Source: a virus (Duplodnaviria; Heunggongvirae; Uroviricota; Caudoviricetes). Taken from it: a stretch of 15,730 nucleotides of DNA. The number at the start of each line of letters is the position of its first letter. Within the stretch, counting starts at the first letter, position 1. The stretch lies in IMG/VR virus record IMGVR_UViG_2563366867_000010. One strand, given 5' to 3'. Shown here piece by piece: positions 1 through 15,730 of the stretch. The notes below the pieces were generated by a model, which was not told the origin of the DNA, did not search any database, and saw nothing but the letters and a program-made list of their open reading frames with translations. The translations under genes and the position numbers were made by a program.

Positions 1-135
1 CTACGAAGACAGCGACCTCCGTCTGGCCGGTTCGGATCCGTACCTCGCGAGGTCTTTCCTCGTTACCAGTGCCGTCACTATGACGGTTAAACAGATGACG
101 ATCAGGGCGATTAACATCGCCTTTTGCTGCTTCAT
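1..135 (-). CDS. hokD: Hok/Gef-family small membrane toxin homolog (HokD/RelF-like); C-terminal region frameshifted, possibly a pseudogene
   Basis: Translation from ATG at 135..133 gives MKQQKAMLIALIVICLTVIVTALVTRKDL, which matches the HokD N-terminus and transmembrane segment as I recall it. AAGGAG lies 9 nt upstream. After codon DL the frame diverges (..ARYGSEPARRRSLSS*), while the conserved Hok tail EVRIRTGQTEVAVF is encoded in the adjacent frame (about 47 down to 4), consistent with a 1-nt deletion at the conserved Cys codon. Stop sits at 3..1, the window edge. Confidence 0.7.
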   Translation of the reverse strand: MKQQKAMLIALIVICLTVIVTALVTRKDLARYGSEPARRRSLSS

Positions 136-310
136 AGCCTGCTTCTCCTTGCCTTTCGGCACGTAAGAGGCTAACCTGCATGTGTTCAGCATGAAATTGG
201 CCTCAGATTAATGTTAAGCGTCTTGCAGGACACGTAATGTTAACTGGGGCTTTTCTCCGTCTGCCTTACGGCAGCATGCCCGAGGCAGACCCCCTCAAGC
301 ACCCGCAGTC

Positions 311-7726: not shown

Positions 7727-7921
7727 ATGAATAATTGCGTTGAAGTACTCGATAATGTCCACTGCGAGATAACAGAAAGCCTGTCTTTGTTACAGGTGAT
7801 TATTGACAGCGGTGATATTGGTTCACCAGATGCGCTAAACATGATGAATTGTCTTTTCCGCTCATTATCCTGTACAGCAGACAAAGCAGAAAAGCATCTG
7901 TGCCGGACTGAAAACGAATAA
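7727..7921 (+). CDS. Small acidic protein, paralog family member 3
   Basis: 64 aa with GGAG 10 nt upstream. Aligns by eye with 6761..6952 and 6949..7149. Confidence 0.6.
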   Translation: MNNCVEVLDNVHCEITESLSLLQVIIDSGDIGSPDALNMMNCLFRSLSCTADKAEKHLCRTENE

Positions 7922-8189
7922 CATTATTTAAGAACAGTAATTAATTTACAGCTTTATTGTCGGGGATTTTTACAACCTGAAAAGGCCAGGCTGTATCACA
8001 GATATATCGCAACAAACGAATTGCTGAGCCACATCTTCTGGCTGCGCTCAGAGTGAATAAAAGTAATTAACACCGGATGAACACGGAGTAACCATGAAAG
8101 AAGAACCTGAAATCATTGAAATTAATTCTGAAGAATTCACAGAAAACGAATGACTGACAGAAACCGATCCGCGCGTTCTGGCGCTGACA

Positions 8190-8654
8190 ATGGAAGGATA
8201 CATCGTATTTCCACCTTTCTTCAGTGATGCGGAATACAGTGCAATAAATAATGCCGGAATCGACCGTGCTTTTCATAAATACGAACTCGATTGCGGCCCT
8301 GTTTACAGAGTCTGCCGCCACGGACAAGTTAAGAAATGCTTCACGCGAAAAACGGCCATCATACATCTCGCTCATTTTATGACAACGAAGGTATTCGAAA
8401 GTTCAGGTTTTGAAAAACGTCTGCCTGACCAGCGCCTGATGCATCCGGAATATGGAGAAGTCTTTCATCCGGGAGAAATTACGCCCGAATACTACAGAGC
8501 TCACGGGCGTTGTTTTTATCGCCTGTTGCGCATCCTTGCACGCAGAAAACAGTTTGATGCCTGGATGGAAAAATACAACGCCTGGATTGATCAGTATTGC
8601 CGGCTTGTCGCGCAAAGACCATTTAAGAAGAGAGCAAACCATGACTGCAACTGA
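8190..8654 (+). CDS. Hypothetical Cys/His-containing protein; may be the remnant of a longer gene starting at 8094
   Basis: 154-aa ORF with CGPVYRVCRHGQVKKC and several His. No Shine-Dalgarno before ATG 8190, but a well-placed GGAG precedes an in-frame ATG at 8094, separated from this ORF only by TGA at 8151..8153. Confidence 0.5.
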   Translation: MEGYIVFPPFFSDAEYSAINNAGIDRAFHKYELDCGPVYRVCRHGQVKKCFTRKTAIIHLAHFMTTKVFESSGFEKRLPDQRLMHPEYGEVFHPGEITPEYYRAHGRCFYRLLRILARRKQFDAWMEKYNAWIDQYCRLVAQRPFKKRANHDCN

Positions 8655-9225
8655 ACAGTTATTTTTTCTTACCGCTGAAGGTATCCACACACCTTACGGA
8701 CTGCTTGATATCAACAAAGCACTGGAAATGCTCGATGAAGGCTGTTTTGACGAGCCGATCTGGCATGGTCTGGAAATAGTGTGTTGCATCAGTGAAGCAG
8801 AAGAAAAAGGCATGACAGGTGAGCTCGCGCCGGAAAAGACAATCATGTACTGGCGCTGGCTTTATACCGCCATGTTCTTCTCTGAACAGCTCACCAGAAA
8901 CGGCTGGACCGAAGTGCTTAACGAGAATGGCGGTACAGACAAGGGCACCATGTACAGAGGCCACAACGGTGGCATGACAATCTACCTGAAACCATTACGT
9001 CTCGCTATGCAGAACTATATGGAATGGGCACTCATAGAAACTTACGGAGCGGAATCAGGGCTGCTCAAAAGCATTCTTATGTACAAAGCATTCACCGGCG
9101 CTCTGGGCGACGGCGAAAAAACCGGCATCACAATGGAAGGTTACAGAGCGATGCACATGATTCTGGATGGGCTTATCAGTGAAGCCACTGACAACTCAGA
9201 ACCGGAAACCAGAGTGTTCCACTAA
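8641..9225 (+). CDS. Hypothetical protein
   Basis: 194 aa from ATG 8641, which overlaps the end of the preceding ORF by 14 bp. The ORF-track start at 8452 would overlap the upstream gene by about 200 bp and is judged an over-extension. Confidence 0.55.
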   Translation: MTATEQLFFLTAEGIHTPYGLLDINKALEMLDEGCFDEPIWHGLEIVCCISEAEEKGMTGELAPEKTIMYWRWLYTAMFFSEQLTRNGWTEVLNENGGTDKGTMYRGHNGGMTIYLKPLRLAMQNYMEWALIETYGAESGLLKSILMYKAFTGALGDGEKTGITMEGYRAMHMILDGLISEATDNSEPETRVFH

Positions 9226-9245: not shown

Positions 9246-10115
9246 ATGATGAAAAAATCAACTGAACTTGTGCCGGTGGCAGCCCGTGATTTGCAAATTA
9301 TCGAATATCGCGGTCAACGCGTTGTGACCACTGAACAACTGGCGGCAGGTTATGGAGCAACACCAATCCGTATTCGCCAGAATCATTCCCGAAACGAAGA
9401 ACGATTCGTTGTTGGAAAGCATTATTTTTTGCTGGAAGGCGATGAACTACGTGAACTTAAGCACAGAGTATCTCAAAGCTACTCTGTGAAAATTGCCAGC
9501 AATGTTCGATCCCTCATCCTCTGGACCGAACGCGGCGCAGCCAACCACGCAAAATTGCTGGAAACGGATCAGGCGTGGAACTATCACGAAGACCTTGTGG
9601 AGTTCTACTTCACTCAGCGGGAAAACATCGATGTTCAGCGCGTACTCACTCGCAAGGAACTCGCGTTGATGGTTATTGAGGCCGAAGAACGGGCTGAAGC
9701 TATGGCCCTGGAAAATAAAACGCTCTCTGCAACCGTAGACAGTCTGGAAAAACATTTCTCTAAAGGCATGACTGTTCCCCAGTTCTGCCGTGCGCTGAAC
9801 GGCGTAAATACCAGCCAGATAATGTGGTGGCTGTCTGGCCGAAAATGGGTATTCAACGAACAACGCGATCCGGAGAAAACACCCCGCTGGCGCACGGCCT
9901 CTTATGCCCGTGACAGATACCTGACCGAAGAAGCAGTACAGATCACTCCACACGGGAAAGCAACATTCACGAAATTCACCCCCGTATTGCTGGAAAAAGG
10001 ATGCCACCGTTTATACCAGTTTTACATGAACGGTGAACTCCCTATGAAGAAAAACTGGAACGGTGAATTTAAACACGACAAAGCTATTTACACACCGGAG
10101 GCAGAACATGAATAG
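9246..10115 (+). CDS. ORF6N/KilA-N-type DNA-binding domain protein, antirepressor-like
   Basis: N-terminal LQIIEYRGQRVVTTEQLAAGYGATPIRIRQNHSRNEERFVVGKHYFLLEGDELRELK looks like the ORF6N domain found at the N-terminus of phage antirepressors, recalled from memory. The central region looks coiled-coil (EAEERAEAMALENKTLSATVDSLEK). Confidence 0.6.
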   Translation: MMKKSTELVPVAARDLQIIEYRGQRVVTTEQLAAGYGATPIRIRQNHSRNEERFVVGKHYFLLEGDELRELKHRVSQSYSVKIASNVRSLILWTERGAANHAKLLETDQAWNYHEDLVEFYFTQRENIDVQRVLTRKELALMVIEAEERAEAMALENKTLSATVDSLEKHFSKGMTVPQFCRALNGVNTSQIMWWLSGRKWVFNEQRDPEKTPRWRTASYARDRYLTEEAVQITPHGKATFTKFTPVLLEKGCHRLYQFYMNGELPMKKNWNGEFKHDKAIYTPEAEHE

Positions 10116-10486: not shown

Positions 10487-10711
10487 ATGATTATTTCATT
10501 CACCGATTACGGCGAACAGGCAAAACTGATTATCACCAGTTCCCGCCTGACATTGCGAAAACATAATCGTGTCGTTGATGCGGTACTTCTGTGCACGCCG
10601 GACATCACAGAAAGCCGGAGCGGCTTTTTCCTGGTTAAGTCGTCATTATCAGGAAAAACACGCGACATCCTGCGCGCCTACAAAACAGCAACAAGGGAGT
10701 CTGAACGATGA
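10487..10711 (+). CDS. Hypothetical small protein
   Basis: 74 aa from ATG 10487 with GGAG 11 nt upstream. Its stop overlaps the next start (ATGA). Confidence 0.5.
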   Translation: MIISFTDYGEQAKLIITSSRLTLRKHNRVVDAVLLCTPDITESRSGFFLVKSSLSGKTRDILRAYKTATRESER

Positions 10712-11070
10712 AAGAAGCTGATCTGAAAGCACTGCGTGACGCCGCACAAAATACCGTATATGGAGACAAGGGATGTGATCTGGAAGCATTTCACTCCCTT
10801 GCCACTCCGCCAGTTATCCTTGCGCTAATCAGTCACATAGAAAATCTGGAGAAAAAACTGGATGAAATCGTAACGTCAGAGATTAGCCCGAAGGCCTGGC
10901 TGAATAACCTTACGGGGGAAGTTTGCAGTATTGATGCCATGCCTGACGCCCGTAATGACAGAGAAACATACACCCCGCTTTATCCTGCCTGGCAGCGCAT
11001 TGCCGCCGCAGATGATAACGGCAGAGTGGCATGGATGTATACGCACAAAAAAGCAGGTTACAGGGTCTAA
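10708..11070 (+). CDS. 5' fragment of an early-left phage gene interrupted by IS4 (possibly Ea22-like; truncated 120-aa product)
   Basis: AGGGAG 8 nt upstream of ATG 10708. The reading frame runs into the IS4 left end, whose first three bases (TAA, 11068..11070) supply the stop codon. The same frame resumes immediately after the right target duplication. Confidence 0.6.
   Translation: MKEADLKALRDAAQNTVYGDKGCDLEAFHSLATPPVILALISHIENLEKKLDEIVTSEISPKAWLNNLTGEVCSIDAMPDARNDRETYTPLYPAWQRIAAADDNGRVAWMYTHKKAGYRV
11056..11067. repeat. Target-site duplication, left copy (GGTTACAGGGTC)
   Basis: An identical 12-mer flanks the IS4 on the other side at 12494..12505. Confidence 0.85.
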
Positions 11071-12493
11071 TGCCAGTCAGTTAAGCAACTGACTGGCTCT
11101 TTTTCGGGGCTGTGGGGTATTTCCAGGGCCTCTCCTTTACCACTCTCGGGAAGGCCCTTTCCCTTCTTGTCGGTAATTTCACAAGTTGTCCCATACTTGC
11201 AAGATCGCGCATCAGCTCCGGTATACGTCCCGGTGAAGCGCCCTGCAATGTCATCAGCATTCTCATCACCATTCCGCATGATTCTGAGAAACTCAGTTGA
11301 TTCGGCCAGTAACCTTTCAGATGTTCCGCCATTTTAATCATCTGATATCTCACCAGATTATAAGCCAGTAAGACACCCCACAGCTCTTGCTCCACAAGCT
11401 CCGGCTTTTTACTTCTCAGCGTCAGCCTGCTCCGTTGCATCGTCTGTTTTATCTCCCTGTATCCCAGTTCGATTTCCCAGCGATGACTGTACAGATCCCC
11501 CATTTCTCCTCCGGGGAAGCGCATGGCGTCCGTCATCGACGTCAGCAGATGGCAGACTTTTCCTTTGCGCGTCACGGTCAGCAGGCGGGCAGTCACTTCA
11601 TTTCCCAGTCCCGGCCACTTTTTTCGTGCCTGCGGGCTGGTTTTCAGCTTCACCAGATGATCGCCTTTACCCAGTTTTCTGATCTCTTCATATTGCGCTC
11701 CCTTTCTGAGAGGTATCATCCAGTGGCGGTGTTCTCCCGCCAGGCTCCAGGCATTTAACAGTCCCAGTGAGTAATAACCTTTATCCATTAACGTCAGAGT
11801 GTTATCGCCGGTTTGTTCTATAAGTTGCTCAGCAAGCTCATTTTCGCTGTTCTTCATCGTGCCGAAGGCTGCAGCCGTCAGCAGATGGCTGGTCAGTTCC
11901 ATCTGGCAGACCATTTTGACCTGCGGGTAGAGCGCCGGGTTCCCGGCATGTGTCTGGCGGGGGAAGGCTGCATCGTTCTCTGGTGTATCCGGTGTGCGCC
12001 AGAACACACCATCGATGGCCAGCAGGGTCAGGCCGCACCAGTGCGGATGCGGCGTGGCGTTATGCCAGAGCTGCGCTGTTTTCGTGAACACGCGGCGGAC
12101 AGCCTCACTTCCCAGGCGCTGGCGGGCCTGAATAACGGCACTGGGGGCAACGAAGGGGCGATTGCCCGGCAGCATGATGTCCAGGCGATTCACAATCTGG
12201 TGAAGAGGTTCTTTACGCTCAAGCGCCATGCCAACAATACACCAGACCATCATTTCGAGGGGAAGACGGCGCTTGCGTAGCGTTACAGTACCTGATTCGG
12301 CAAGGCAACGAGAGATGAGTTCGGGGTCGAGGTAATCCCCCAGAGAAGTCAGTGGGTTACGCAGAGAATCGTAACGGGATACCAGATCAAGAGCCTGTCC
12401 AATGTGCATAAAAAAATCCGGAAACAAGTGAGCGTTTCCGGATTCTTACACAGCCACTGGATCGGTCAACTGATCCTTAACTGATCGGCATTA
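11068..12493. mobile_element. Insertion sequence IS4, complete copy (1426 bp)
   Basis: Terminal inverted repeats TAATGCCAGTCAGTTAAG (11068..11085) and rc TAATGCCGATCAGTTAAG (12476..12493). A single transposase ORF fills the element. Flanked by a 12-bp direct repeat. Confidence 0.9.
11081..12409 (-). CDS. insG: IS4 transposase (DDE, IS4 family)
   Basis: 442-aa translation beginning [40 protein letters not shown].. matches the IS4 transposase as I recall it. The ORF-track start at 12427 is a TTG; the true ATG is at 12409. Confidence 0.9.
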
Positions 12494-13745: not shown

Positions 13746-15035
13746 ATGAGTAACGCATCATACCCGACAGGCGTTGAAAACCATGGCGGATCACTCCGCA
13801 TATGGTTTCACTATAACGGCAAACGTGTCAGAGAAAACCTCGGTGTTCCTGACACCGCCAAAAACCGGAAGATCGCAGGTGAACTTCGCACTTCCGTTTG
13901 TTTTGCAATAAGAATGGGGAGCTTCGACTACGCCGCGCAGTTCCCTAATTCCCCTAACCTGAAACATTTTGGTCTGGGAAAAAAAGAGATAACCATTAAG
14001 GCACTTTCGGAAAAATGGCTTGAGCTTAAGAAAATGGAAATAACAACAAATGCCATGGTCAGATACAAATCAGCTATCCGAAATTGCCTTGACTGCCTTG
14101 GAGGGAACAAACTGGCATCATCAATTACACAGGAAGATGTTCTCATTTTTCGTAAAGAATTATTAACGGGATATCAGTTGCCAAGAAAAATTCAGAGGAA
14201 GCCTATTAAAGGTCGTAGTGTACCTACTGTAAATAGCTATATGACAATTATCTCCGGGATGTTCCGTTTTGCGGCAAACAATGGGTATATAGGCAAAAAC
14301 CCTTTCAGTGAGCTTCCATCACTGAAAAGAGCGAAAACACCTCCCGATCCACTAACAAAAGATGAGTTTGCCAGACTGATTGATGCGTGCCACCACCAGC
14401 AAACTAAAAATTTCTGGTCGCTGGCTGTATATACCGGGATGCGGCATGGCGAACTGTGTGGGCTGGCATGGGAGGATATCGATCTGGAAGCGGGTACCTT
14501 GACCGTCAAAAGGAATTACACTCAGACAAAGGAATTTACACTACCCAAAACAGATGCAGGAACAAACAGGGTAATACAACTCATACAGCCAGCAATTGAC
14601 GTATTAAAAAATCAGGCGACATTAACCAGGCTTGGTAAACAATATCAGATAGAAGTAAAGCTGCGAGAGTATGGCCGGACAAGCACTCACTCATGCAGCT
14701 TTGTTTTCAATCCTCAGATATTAGATCGCACAGGTAACTCAGGAGTTCATTATGCCGTAACATCCATCAACAGAACATGGGAATCTGCATTAAAACGAGC
14801 AAAAATTCGCCATAGAAAAGCGTATCAGTCTCGGCATACTTATGCTTGCTGGGCTTTAACTGCCGGAGCAAATCCAAACTTCATAGCCAACCAGATGGGA
14901 CATGCGAATGCCCAGATGGTTTACAATGTTTACGGTGCATGGATGAAAGACAATAACCAGTCCCAGGTAGAAGTACTAAACAGAAAGCTATGTACTTATG
15001 TCCCACAGGTGCCCCAACGACTAAACAAAGCATAG
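13746..15035 (+). CDS. int: Tyrosine recombinase / phage integrase (lambda Int family)
   Basis: 429 aa with GGAGG upstream. C-terminal catalytic-domain signatures: R in YTGMRHGELCGLAWEDID, H..R in SRHTYACWALTAGANP, GHANAQMVYNVYGAWM with the presumed catalytic Tyr. Lies next to xis at the prophage end. Confidence 0.9.
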   Translation: MSNASYPTGVENHGGSLRIWFHYNGKRVRENLGVPDTAKNRKIAGELRTSVCFAIRMGSFDYAAQFPNSPNLKHFGLGKKEITIKALSEKWLELKKMEITTNAMVRYKSAIRNCLDCLGGNKLASSITQEDVLIFRKELLTGYQLPRKIQRKPIKGRSVPTVNSYMTIISGMFRFAANNGYIGKNPFSELPSLKRAKTPPDPLTKDEFARLIDACHHQQTKNFWSLAVYTGMRHGELCGLAWEDIDLEAGTLTVKRNYTQTKEFTLPKTDAGTNRVIQLIQPAIDVLKNQATLTRLGKQYQIEVKLREYGRTSTHSCSFVFNPQILDRTGNSGVHYAVTSINRTWESALKRAKIRHRKAYQSRHTYACWALTAGANPNFIANQMGHANAQMVYNVYGAWMKDNNQSQVEVLNRKLCTYVPQVPQRLNKA

Positions 15036-15079: not shown

Positions 15080-15730
15080 ATGAACAATATGAACGTAATT
15101 ATTGCCGATGACCATCCGATAGTCTTGTTCGGTATTCGCAAATCACTTGAGCAAATTGAGTGGGTGAATGTTGTCGGCGAATTTGAAGACTCTACAGCAC
15201 TGATCAACAACTTGCCGAAACTGGATGCACATGTGTTGATTACCGATCTCTCCATGCCTGGCGATAAGTACGGCGATGGCATTACCTTAATCAAGTACAT
15301 CAAGCGCCATTTCCCAAGCCTGTCGATCATTGTTCTGACCATGAACAACAACCCGGCGATTCTTAGTGCGGTATTGGATCTGGATATCGAAGGGATCGTG
15401 CTGAAACAAGGTGCACCGACCGATCTGCCGAAAGCTCTCGCCGCGCTGCAGAAAGGGAAGAAATTTACCCCGGAAAGCGTTTCTCGCCTGTTGGAAAAAA
15501 TCAGTGCTGGTGGTTATGGTGACAAGCGTCTCTCGCCAAAAGAGAGTGAAGTTCTGCGCCTGTTTGCGGAAGGCTTCCTGGTGACCGAGATCGCTAAAAA
15601 GCTGAACCGCAGTATTAAAACCATCAGTAGCCAGAAGAAATCTGCGATGATGAAGCTGGGTGTCGAGAACGATATTGCTCTGCTGAATTATCTCTCTTCT
15701 GTGACGTTAAGTCCGGCAGATAAAGACTAA
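15080..15730 (+). CDS. rcsB: Response regulator RcsB (Rcs phosphorelay, LuxR/FixJ-type HTH)
   Basis: 216-aa translation MNNMNVIIADDHPIVLFGIRKSLEQIEWVNVVGEFEDSTALINNLPKLDAHVLITDLSMPGDKYGDG..LSPADKD matches E. coli RcsB essentially end to end as I recall it. Receiver domain with phospho-acceptor Asp in LITDLSMPG; C-terminal LuxR-type HTH. Confidence 0.95.
   Translation: MNNMNVIIADDHPIVLFGIRKSLEQIEWVNVVGEFEDSTALINNLPKLDAHVLITDLSMPGDKYGDGITLIKYIKRHFPSLSIIVLTMNNNPAILSAVLDLDIEGIVLKQGAPTDLPKALAALQKGKKFTPESVSRLLEKISAGGYGDKRLSPKESEVLRLFAEGFLVTEIAKKLNRSIKTISSQKKSAMMKLGVENDIALLNYLSSVTLSPADKD

What the first reader, a model, noticed from the sequence alone, without database searches (positions are those of the whole stretch)
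8094..8654. In-frame TGA separating a well-initiated 19-codon ORF from a 154-aa ORF
ATG 8094 has a good Shine-Dalgarno (GGAG) and encodes MKEEPEIIEINSEEFTENE, then TGA (8151..8153). The same frame continues without interruption into the 154-aa ORF, whose own ATG (8190) has no recognisable RBS. This fits a nonsense mutation in a gene that originally started at 8094, or less likely programmed stop-codon readthrough or reinitiation. The downstream product carries a Cys/His cluster (CGPVYRVCRHGQVKKC).
Basis: seen in the sequence. Interest (0 to 1): 0.45.

Follow-up and report, generated by a model that had tools for sequence, protein, structure and literature searches.

The report
Premature stop in prophage accessory gene
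The in-frame TGA is an ordinary, lineage-specific nonsense mutation (Trp20 TGG to TGA) in a 186-codon prophage gene of unknown function that is intact in nearly all related E. coli prophages.

Summary
ATG 8094 has a GGAG Shine-Dalgarno. It is followed by 19 codons, TGA at 8151-8153, and the same frame running on to the stop at 8652-8654. The internal ATG 8190 has no ribosome-binding site.

Every intact ortholog examined has one uninterrupted 186-codon gene with TGG (Trp) at codon 20. That covers all 13 complete E. coli genomes carrying this prophage segment and 9 of 10 further contigs. The window therefore carries a single G-to-A change at 8153. The change is real: identical sequence occurs in independent assemblies.

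The gene belongs to PHROG 1886, which has no known function. It lies in the early-left operon of a lambdoid prophage integrated next to rcsB. Distant homologs are shorter (129-157 aa) and align only from about residue 46. The first 33 codons evolve without constraint (dN/dS about 1.9, against 0.15-0.21 for the core). The 154-aa remainder therefore contains the whole conserved domain.

Any residual expression would need leaky UGA-C readthrough by tRNA-Trp, which would restore the native protein, or inefficient restart 36 nt downstream.

The same prophage also carries an IS4 insertion in another gene, which fits gene decay. Programmed readthrough is not supported. The Cys/His cluster is not conserved. 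Interest is low.

The parts
8085..8088 (+). Shine-Dalgarno GGAG serving the ancestral start codon
   Evidence: Sequence. Anti-SD duplex -6.1 kcal/mol, top 7% of window positions. Identical in all orthologs.
8094..8654 (+). Ancestral 186-codon gene (PHROG 1886, function unknown), here interrupted at codon 20
   Evidence: Annotated as one 561-nt CDS in the seven complete E. coli genomes whose annotation was fetched, e.g. WP_000657001.1. None of the 13 complete genomes with this segment carries the window's TGA haplotype. Intact in 9 of 10 further contigs. PHROG 1886 E=1.5e-42.
8094..8150 (+). 19-codon N-terminal remnant (MKEEPEIIEINSEEFTENE), part of a poorly conserved acidic N-terminal extension
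   Evidence: Translation. The first 33 codons have dN/dS about 1.9 against the 177-aa alleles, versus 0.15-0.21 for the core. The extension is absent from distant homologs.
8151..8153 (+). Premature stop TGA. The derived base is A at 8153, and the ancestral codon is TGG (Trp20). The next base is C (UGA-C).
   Evidence: Alignments with orthologs. Per-locus codon table. SNP list against the closest intact relative.
8190..8654 (+). Residual 154-aa ORF from internal Met33. It contains the entire conserved domain but has no RBS of its own.
   Evidence: Anti-SD -1.5 kcal/mol, about the median position. Met33 is Ser in the 177-aa alleles. AF2 model of this ORF has pLDDT 83.7 with an ordered core from about residue 21.
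8241..8630 (+). Conserved core of the family (residues 50-179 of the 186-aa protein), matching PHROG 1886 positions 4-133 of 135
   Evidence: tblastn hits in phages cover residues about 46-180 only. HMMER hits of 129-157 aa start at query residues 16-23 of the 154-aa ORF.
8641..9225 (+). Downstream 194-aa gene (PHROG 1515). It overlaps the end of the interrupted gene by 14 nt and could be affected by polarity or lost translational coupling.
   Evidence: Annotation in orthologs. PHROG 1515 E=5e-73. Its own SD is moderate, -4.2 kcal/mol.

Best explanation
This is a recent, lineage-specific nonsense mutation. A single G-to-A transition at window position 8153 changed Trp20 (TGG) to TGA in a 186-codon accessory gene. 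The gene belongs to PHROG 1886 and has no known function. It sits in the early-left (pL-like) operon of a lambdoid prophage integrated next to rcsB.

Shown: the ancestral state, the single-base nature of the change, its presence in independent assemblies, and the gene's membership in a small phage family whose conserved domain lies wholly downstream of the stop.

Inferred mechanism: ribosomes that load at the SD-served AUG 8094 are released by RF2 after 19 codons, so most expression of the protein is lost. Two minor escape routes remain. First, UGA followed by C is the least efficient E. coli terminator, and UGA is misread by tRNA-Trp. Rare readthrough would therefore rebuild the exact wild-type protein at a low level. 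Second, restart could occur at AUG 8190, 36 nt downstream and without an SD. That would yield a 154-aa protein that still holds the whole conserved domain, but restart at that spacing is expected to be inefficient.

The mutation fits ongoing decay of a resident prophage. The same element carries an IS4-family insertion in another early-left gene.
For: Codon 20 is TGG and the start is ATG in L001-L003, L010, L012, L013 and L014-L022. None of the 13 complete genomes carrying the segment matches the window exactly over 8080-8205; each differs by 1-3 bases there. Each of the seven that were fetched annotates a 561-nt CDS.

The window differs from the commonest intact allele by this one base only. 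That allele is P0001, seen on 960 contigs.

The TGA allele is not an error. The window is 100% identical over 6465 nt to GCA_036953005.1. The gene is identical in GCA_000351085.1. About 11 of the 24 contigs read that carry the 154-aa product are of this type.

Against the closest intact relative, the 14 kb prophage segment has about 20 SNPs. Only two lesions disrupt a gene: W20* and an IS4-family insertion.

The core is under purifying selection (dN/dS 0.15-0.21), while the N-terminal 33 codons are not (about 1.9).

The SD is present at 8094 and absent at 8190.

Literature: termination at UGA with +4 C is inefficient, and tRNA-Trp misreads UGA in E. coli (PMC5289835). In E. coli, a 38-nt spacing reduces termination-reinitiation by 80-100% (PMC10666635).
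Against: Nothing contradicts the nonsense-mutation origin.

The functional consequence is not measured. The 154-aa ORF retains the whole conserved domain and has accumulated no further lesions, so complete loss of function is not shown.

A second, independent allele (start ATG to ATA) that also removes the N-terminus exists in other lineages. This could hint at selection rather than neutral decay. However, that allele was found by searching for the same 154-aa product, so the ascertainment is biased.
Confidence: 0.93

Rival explanations
1. Adaptive N-terminal truncation or down-tuning. Under this reading the stop is a nonsense mutation by origin but is retained by selection. Lysogens would benefit from silencing the full-length early protein, or from making only a small amount of a 154-aa N-terminally truncated form by restart at AUG 8190.
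For: Two independent single-base alleles on closely related haplotypes both remove the N-terminus and leave the 154-aa ORF intact. They are W20* in the window, L004 and L023, and ATG-to-ATA in L005 and L006. The 154-aa ORF contains the entire conserved domain. The N-terminal 33 codons are unconstrained and appear to be a swappable module.
Against: Both alleles were discovered by looking up the exact 154-aa product. Only N-terminal lesions could be found that way, so there is no unbiased enrichment test. ATG 8190 has no SD and lies 36 nt after the stop, where E. coli reinitiation is nearly abolished (PMC10666635). Met33 is not conserved. Intact alleles outnumber the truncated product by more than 10 to 1 in contig counts. 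The same prophage and its relatives show other decay lesions: an IS4 insertion, and a split 194-aa gene in L005.
Confidence: 0.08
2. Programmed UGA readthrough or recoding. The stop would be a designed regulatory feature giving a fixed ratio of a 19-aa peptide to a full-length protein, or a selenocysteine codon.
For: UGA-C is an intrinsically leaky context, and readthrough by tRNA-Trp would give a sensible product (PMC5289835). The downstream frame is open and coding.
Against: The stop is absent from every ortholog outside this lineage. All have TGG, not TGA, and not TGC as expected for Sec/Cys families. No Rfam family, SECIS included, matches here at gathering threshold. Position 20 is His in the 177-aa alleles and lies in a non-conserved segment.
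Confidence: 0.02
3. Sequencing or assembly error in the window. The true sequence would be TGG.
For: It is a single-base difference from the common allele.
Against: The same base is present in independent assemblies: GCA_036953005.1, GCA_000351085.1 and about 10 further contigs. The 154-aa product is recorded on 113 contigs from NCBI, ENA, MGnify and Logan, although part of those are the ATA allele.
Confidence: 0.01

Closest known systems
Early nonsense mutations with translational restarts (lacI amber mutants restarting at internal codons; phage T4 rIIB restarts). From my own knowledge of the classical genetics; not re-read here.
   Same: There is a premature stop a few codons after a well-initiated start. 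It is followed in frame by an internal AUG that could give an N-terminally truncated protein that may still fold.
   Different: Restart is only a possibility here and has not been shown. The internal AUG has no SD and lies 36 nt downstream, a spacing at which native E. coli gene pairs lose 80-100% of reinitiation (PMC10666635).
Leaky UGA termination in E. coli (UGA-C weakest signal; tRNA-Trp near-cognate decoding; the phage Qbeta A1 readthrough protein as the programmed example)
   Same: The stop is UGA with C at +4, and the natural suppressor tRNA would insert Trp, which is exactly the ancestral residue (PMC5289835).
   Different: In programmed cases the stop is conserved and both products are functional. 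Here the stop is confined to one lineage and the 19-aa product comes from a non-conserved segment.
Mutational decay of resident lambdoid prophages in E. coli (point mutations and IS insertions in accessory genes). General knowledge.
   Same: A non-essential early-left operon gene is hit by a point mutation, and a neighbouring gene in the same element is hit by an IS4-family insertion. Relatives carry IS1, IS66 and IS3 insertions and a frameshifted neighbour gene.
   Different: None of substance. This is a typical instance.
PHROG 1886 proteins, e.g. Salmonella phage Fels-1 STM0898.1n (131 aa), Klebsiella phage KPP5665-2 gp31 (143 aa), Escherichia phage LMessi CDS0027 (137 aa)
   Same: They are homologous over residues about 46-180 (39-48% identity). 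They occupy the same position between the repressor and xis/int in the early-left operon.
   Different: They lack the roughly 45-residue acidic N-terminal extension in which the window's stop codon lies. None has a known function.

Membership tests
Lineage-specific nonsense mutation (pseudogene or hypomorph) of an otherwise intact gene | Orthologs carry a sense codon at the position of the stop | tested here: met
   TGG in L001-L003, L010, L012, L013 and L014-L022. None of the 13 complete genomes carries the window's exact sequence across the site.
Lineage-specific nonsense mutation (pseudogene or hypomorph) of an otherwise intact gene | Orthologs encode a single ORF spanning both parts, using the upstream start and RBS | tested here: met
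   A 561-nt CDS is annotated in 7 complete genomes examined. The SD and ATG are identical.
Lineage-specific nonsense mutation (pseudogene or hypomorph) of an otherwise intact gene | The variant is real, meaning it is seen in independent sequences | tested here: met
   The TGA allele occurs in GCA_036953005.1 and GCA_000351085.1 and in about 10 similar contigs.
Lineage-specific nonsense mutation (pseudogene or hypomorph) of an otherwise intact gene | Loss or reduction of the protein product | not testable with these tools
   This needs a western blot, mass spectrometry or Ribo-seq after prophage induction.
Programmed stop-codon readthrough | The stop codon is conserved across orthologs | tested here: not met
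   The stop is found only in the window's lineage. All other alleles have TGG, or His in the 177-aa alleles.
Programmed stop-codon readthrough | Leaky stop context | tested here: inconclusive
   UGA-C is present and is the weak context in E. coli (PMC5289835). However, the C at +4 is simply the first base of the ancestral Leu21 codon CTG.
Selenocysteine recoding | A SECIS element lies 3' of the UGA, and orthologs have Cys or Sec at the site | tested here: not met
   There is no Rfam hit in the region at gathering threshold. Orthologs have Trp or His.
Leader peptide or upstream ORF translationally coupled to a downstream gene | Two conserved cistrons, with stop-start overlap or an RBS for the second | tested here: not met
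   The gap is 36 nt and ATG 8190 has no SD. Orthologs are one cistron. Met33 is not conserved.
PHROG 1886 (phage protein family of unknown function) | Significant full-length match to the family profile | tested here: met
   E=1.5e-42, covering profile positions 4-133 of 135 and residues 50-179.
Zinc-binding Cys/His motif protein | Metal-ligand Cys/His residues conserved across homologs | tested here: not met
   C67 becomes F and C74 becomes T in the 177-aa alleles. Across 19 homologs only R75, H76, A88, F101 and G127 are (nearly) invariant (positions 43, 44, 56, 69 and 95 of the 154-aa ORF). There is no Pfam or NCBIfam zinc-finger hit.

The most novel reading that the evidence does not exclude
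At least two lineages independently removed the N-terminus of this early prophage protein: W20* here and ATG-to-ATA elsewhere. Both kept the ORF for the complete conserved domain. This could reflect selection in lysogens to silence or shorten a costly early gene, with a low level of native protein maintained through UGA-C readthrough by tRNA-Trp or through restart at Met33.
Probability: 0.08. Interest if true: 0.35.

Novelty: already known. Interest (0 to 1): 0.1.

Why it matters
It matters mostly for annotation. The locus should be annotated as one gene with an internal stop (a pseudogene or hypomorphic allele of WP_000657001.1-type proteins). It should not be annotated as a 154-aa gene, which is how public gene calls record it. 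The case is a clean illustration of single-base decay in a resident prophage. It adds nothing new about recoding. The only mildly useful by-product is a delineation of PHROG 1886: a small orphan family with a core of about 130 aa, a conserved RHG motif, a variable acidic N-terminal extension and no detectable structural relatives.

Tried and rejected
Function assignment failed.
- Pfam, NCBIfam and PADLOC gave no hit for the protein.
- A PDB sequence-profile search gave only E>0.3 noise.
- The weak dsRBD-like alpha-beta-beta-beta-alpha resemblance is not significant, so I do not claim it.

Other checks that led nowhere.
- The megablast search of the phage collection found no close DNA match.
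- The word-indexed protein search returned only 4 clusters.
- No promoter or terminator candidates of note lie around the site.
- There is no Rfam element near it.

I considered testing whether N-terminal lesions are enriched. I rejected the test because the alleles were found by the exact 154-aa product look-up, which can only find N-terminal lesions.

A 136-aa call in L017 looked like a third allele. It was only a different start call on an intact ORF.

Full report
**1. Observation**

The sequence at 8085-8654 is exactly as described.
- GGAG lies at 8085-8088, and ATG at 8094.
- Nineteen codons follow (MKEEPEIIEINSEEFTENE), then TGA at 8151-8153.
- The same frame stays open to TGA at 8652-8654.
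- ATG 8190 is the first canonical start after the stop and gives a 154-aa ORF.

A duplex calculation with the 16S 3' end gives -6.1 kcal/mol upstream of ATG 8094, which is in the top 7% of all positions in the window. It gives -1.5 kcal/mol upstream of ATG 8190, about the median position.

**2. What the orthologs show**

Megablast of 7900-8900 against 5,426 complete E. coli genomes finds the segment in 13 genomes at 99.2-99.9% identity. In the seven that I fetched, RefSeq annotates one 561-nt CDS that coincides with window 8094-8654.

Alignment shows a single difference at the critical site: TGG (Trp) in the orthologs and TGA in the window. A short query across the site matches none of the 13 genomes perfectly.

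Extraction of the ORF from all fetched loci gives ATG...TGG in L001-L003, L010, L012 and L013. The same holds in nine of ten further contigs found through the neighbouring gene.

The window differs from the commonest intact allele by exactly this one base. That allele is P0001, recorded on 960 contigs.

**3. Is the variant real?**

The exact 154-aa product is on record on 113 contigs from several sources. Among the contigs read, L004 (GCA_036953005.1) is 100% identical to the window over 6,465 nt and carries TGA. L023 (GCA_000351085.1) carries the identical gene with TGA. A sequencing error is therefore excluded.

Roughly half of the contigs that yield the same 154-aa call do so for a different reason. 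In L005 and L006 codon 20 is TGG, but the start codon is ATA instead of ATG. These prophages differ from the window at 15-19 other positions in about 5 kb. The ATA allele is therefore an independent lesion.

**4. Context**

The + strand from about 5566 onward is the early-left (pL-like) operon of a lambdoid prophage. In order it contains:
- a LexA-family (cI-type) repressor;
- an HTH protein;
- several small ORFs;
- the target gene;
- a 194-aa gene that overlaps the target's end by 14 nt;
- an ORF6N protein;
- a DUF5406 protein;
- a 300-aa gene;
- xis and int;
- and finally the chromosomal gene rcsB.

The replication genes (helicase, toprim) and Q lie on the other strand.

Against the closest intact relative (DETEC-S792), the prophage part of the window has about 20 point differences. 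Only two lesions disrupt a gene. One is W20*. The other is a 1.4-kb IS4-family element at about 11068-12492, inserted in the 300-aa gene, with a 13-bp overlap of the flanks that fits a target duplication.

Relatives carry other IS insertions (IS1, IS66, IS3) and, in L005, a split 194-aa gene. This is the usual picture of accessory-gene decay in resident prophages.

**5. The protein**

There is no Pfam, NCBIfam or PADLOC match. PHROG 1886 (unknown function) matches residues 50-179 at E=1.5e-42.

tblastn against phage genomes finds 20 records, including Fels-1, Klebsiella prophages and Escherichia phage LMessi. All align only from residue about 46-56 onward. In the three whose annotation I fetched (Fels-1, LMessi, KPP5665-2) the gene is 131-143 aa and sits in the same operon position.

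An exhaustive HMMER search of 1.84 billion representatives finds just 37 relatives. They are typically 129-157 aa and start about 16-23 residues after Met33. The entire conserved domain therefore lies inside the residual 154-aa ORF.

The closest divergent alleles are P0017 and P0019 (177 aa, 64% and 56% identity). They share only MK..II..N with the window's N-terminus, and they have His at position 20 and Ser at position 33. Nei-Gojobori estimates give dN/dS about 1.9 for codons 1-33 and 0.15-0.21 for the core.

C67 and C74 are replaced in homologs, and only R75-H76 and a few hydrophobic or Gly positions are nearly invariant across the family; G77 is invariant only among the four close alleles.

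**6. Mechanism and consequences (inferred)**

Ribosomes initiating at AUG 8094 meet UGA after 19 codons and are released by RF2. Two leaks are conceivable.

(a) Readthrough. UGA followed by C is documented as the least efficient termination signal in E. coli, and UGA is misread by tRNA-Trp (PMC5289835, citing Poole 1995 and Engelberg-Kulka 1981). Because the lost residue was Trp, readthrough would regenerate the wild-type protein, presumably at a low level.

(b) Restart at AUG 8190. The 36-nt gap and the missing SD make this inefficient. In native E. coli gene pairs a 38-nt gap cut reinitiation by 80-100% (PMC10666635).

The downstream gene keeps a moderate SD of its own (-4.2 kcal/mol). It loses whatever coupling the 14-nt overlap provided. 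About 490 nt of now mostly untranslated mRNA might add polarity, although base composition there is unremarkable.

None of these consequences was measured.

**7. Rivals**

- Programmed readthrough and selenocysteine are rejected because the stop is not conserved. Orthologs have Trp or His, not Cys or Sec, and there is no Rfam element.
- A two-cistron leader arrangement is rejected for the same reason.
- An adaptive reading cannot be excluded, but it rests on two alleles found by a biased look-up. That reading is selection to silence or shorten the protein, suggested by the independent ATA allele.

**8. Verdict**

This is a real but ordinary feature: a single-base nonsense allele of a prophage accessory gene. 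Public gene calls record it as a 154-aa protein. It would be better annotated as an internally interrupted 186-codon gene.

Noticed in passing
L005:2905-2907 and L006:2905-2907 (equivalent to window 8094-8096): Other prophage lineages (GCA_052539895.1, GCA_002520575.1) carry an independent lesion of the same gene. The start codon is ATG to ATA, with TGG intact at codon 20. Gene callers give the same 154-aa product for these.
   Followed up: partly
window 11068-12492 (- strand ORF 11081-12427): An IS4-family transposase element (NCBIfam NF033592, E=2.7e-89) is inserted in the 300-aa early-left gene. This leaves a 120-aa stump at 10708-11070. The flanks overlap by 13 bp in the uninterrupted relative, which fits a target-site duplication.
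   Followed up: partly
window 130-304 (- strand): Rfam sok antitoxin RNA (RF01794, 103 bits) lies beside a Hok/Gef-type ORF next to the Q antiterminator gene. The hok gene is annotated as frameshifted in the relative DETEC-S792.
   Followed up: no
L024:4001-4099 versus L026:4001-4099: The two 177-aa alleles (P0017, P0019) are identical at the DNA level over codons 1-33, although their cores differ by dS about 0.48. The N-terminal module seems to have been exchanged by recombination with a breakpoint near codon 33, the same boundary where similarity to the window's protein begins.
   Followed up: partly
L005:3452-4029 (equivalent to window 8641-9225): In the ATA-allele lineage the downstream 194-aa gene is called as two pieces (129 aa and 68 aa). 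This suggests a frameshift, a further sign of decay in this operon.
   Followed up: no
window 9246-10115 (+): The ORF6N-domain protein two genes downstream gives weak to moderate matches (best E=6e-11) to PADLOC candidate defence models PDC-S05.
   Followed up: no
window 15080-15730 (rcsB) and 13746-15035 (int): The prophage integrase gene ends 44 nt before rcsB. All 8 differences from strain DETEC-S792 in rcsB are synonymous, a denser SNP load than in the prophage itself.
   Followed up: no
protein collection cluster holding P0001 and P0002: The 90%-identity cluster mixes the 186-aa protein with the unrelated neighbouring 194-aa protein and its 222-aa and 165-aa start variants. The cluster size (321 members) therefore does not count alleles of one gene.
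   Followed up: no
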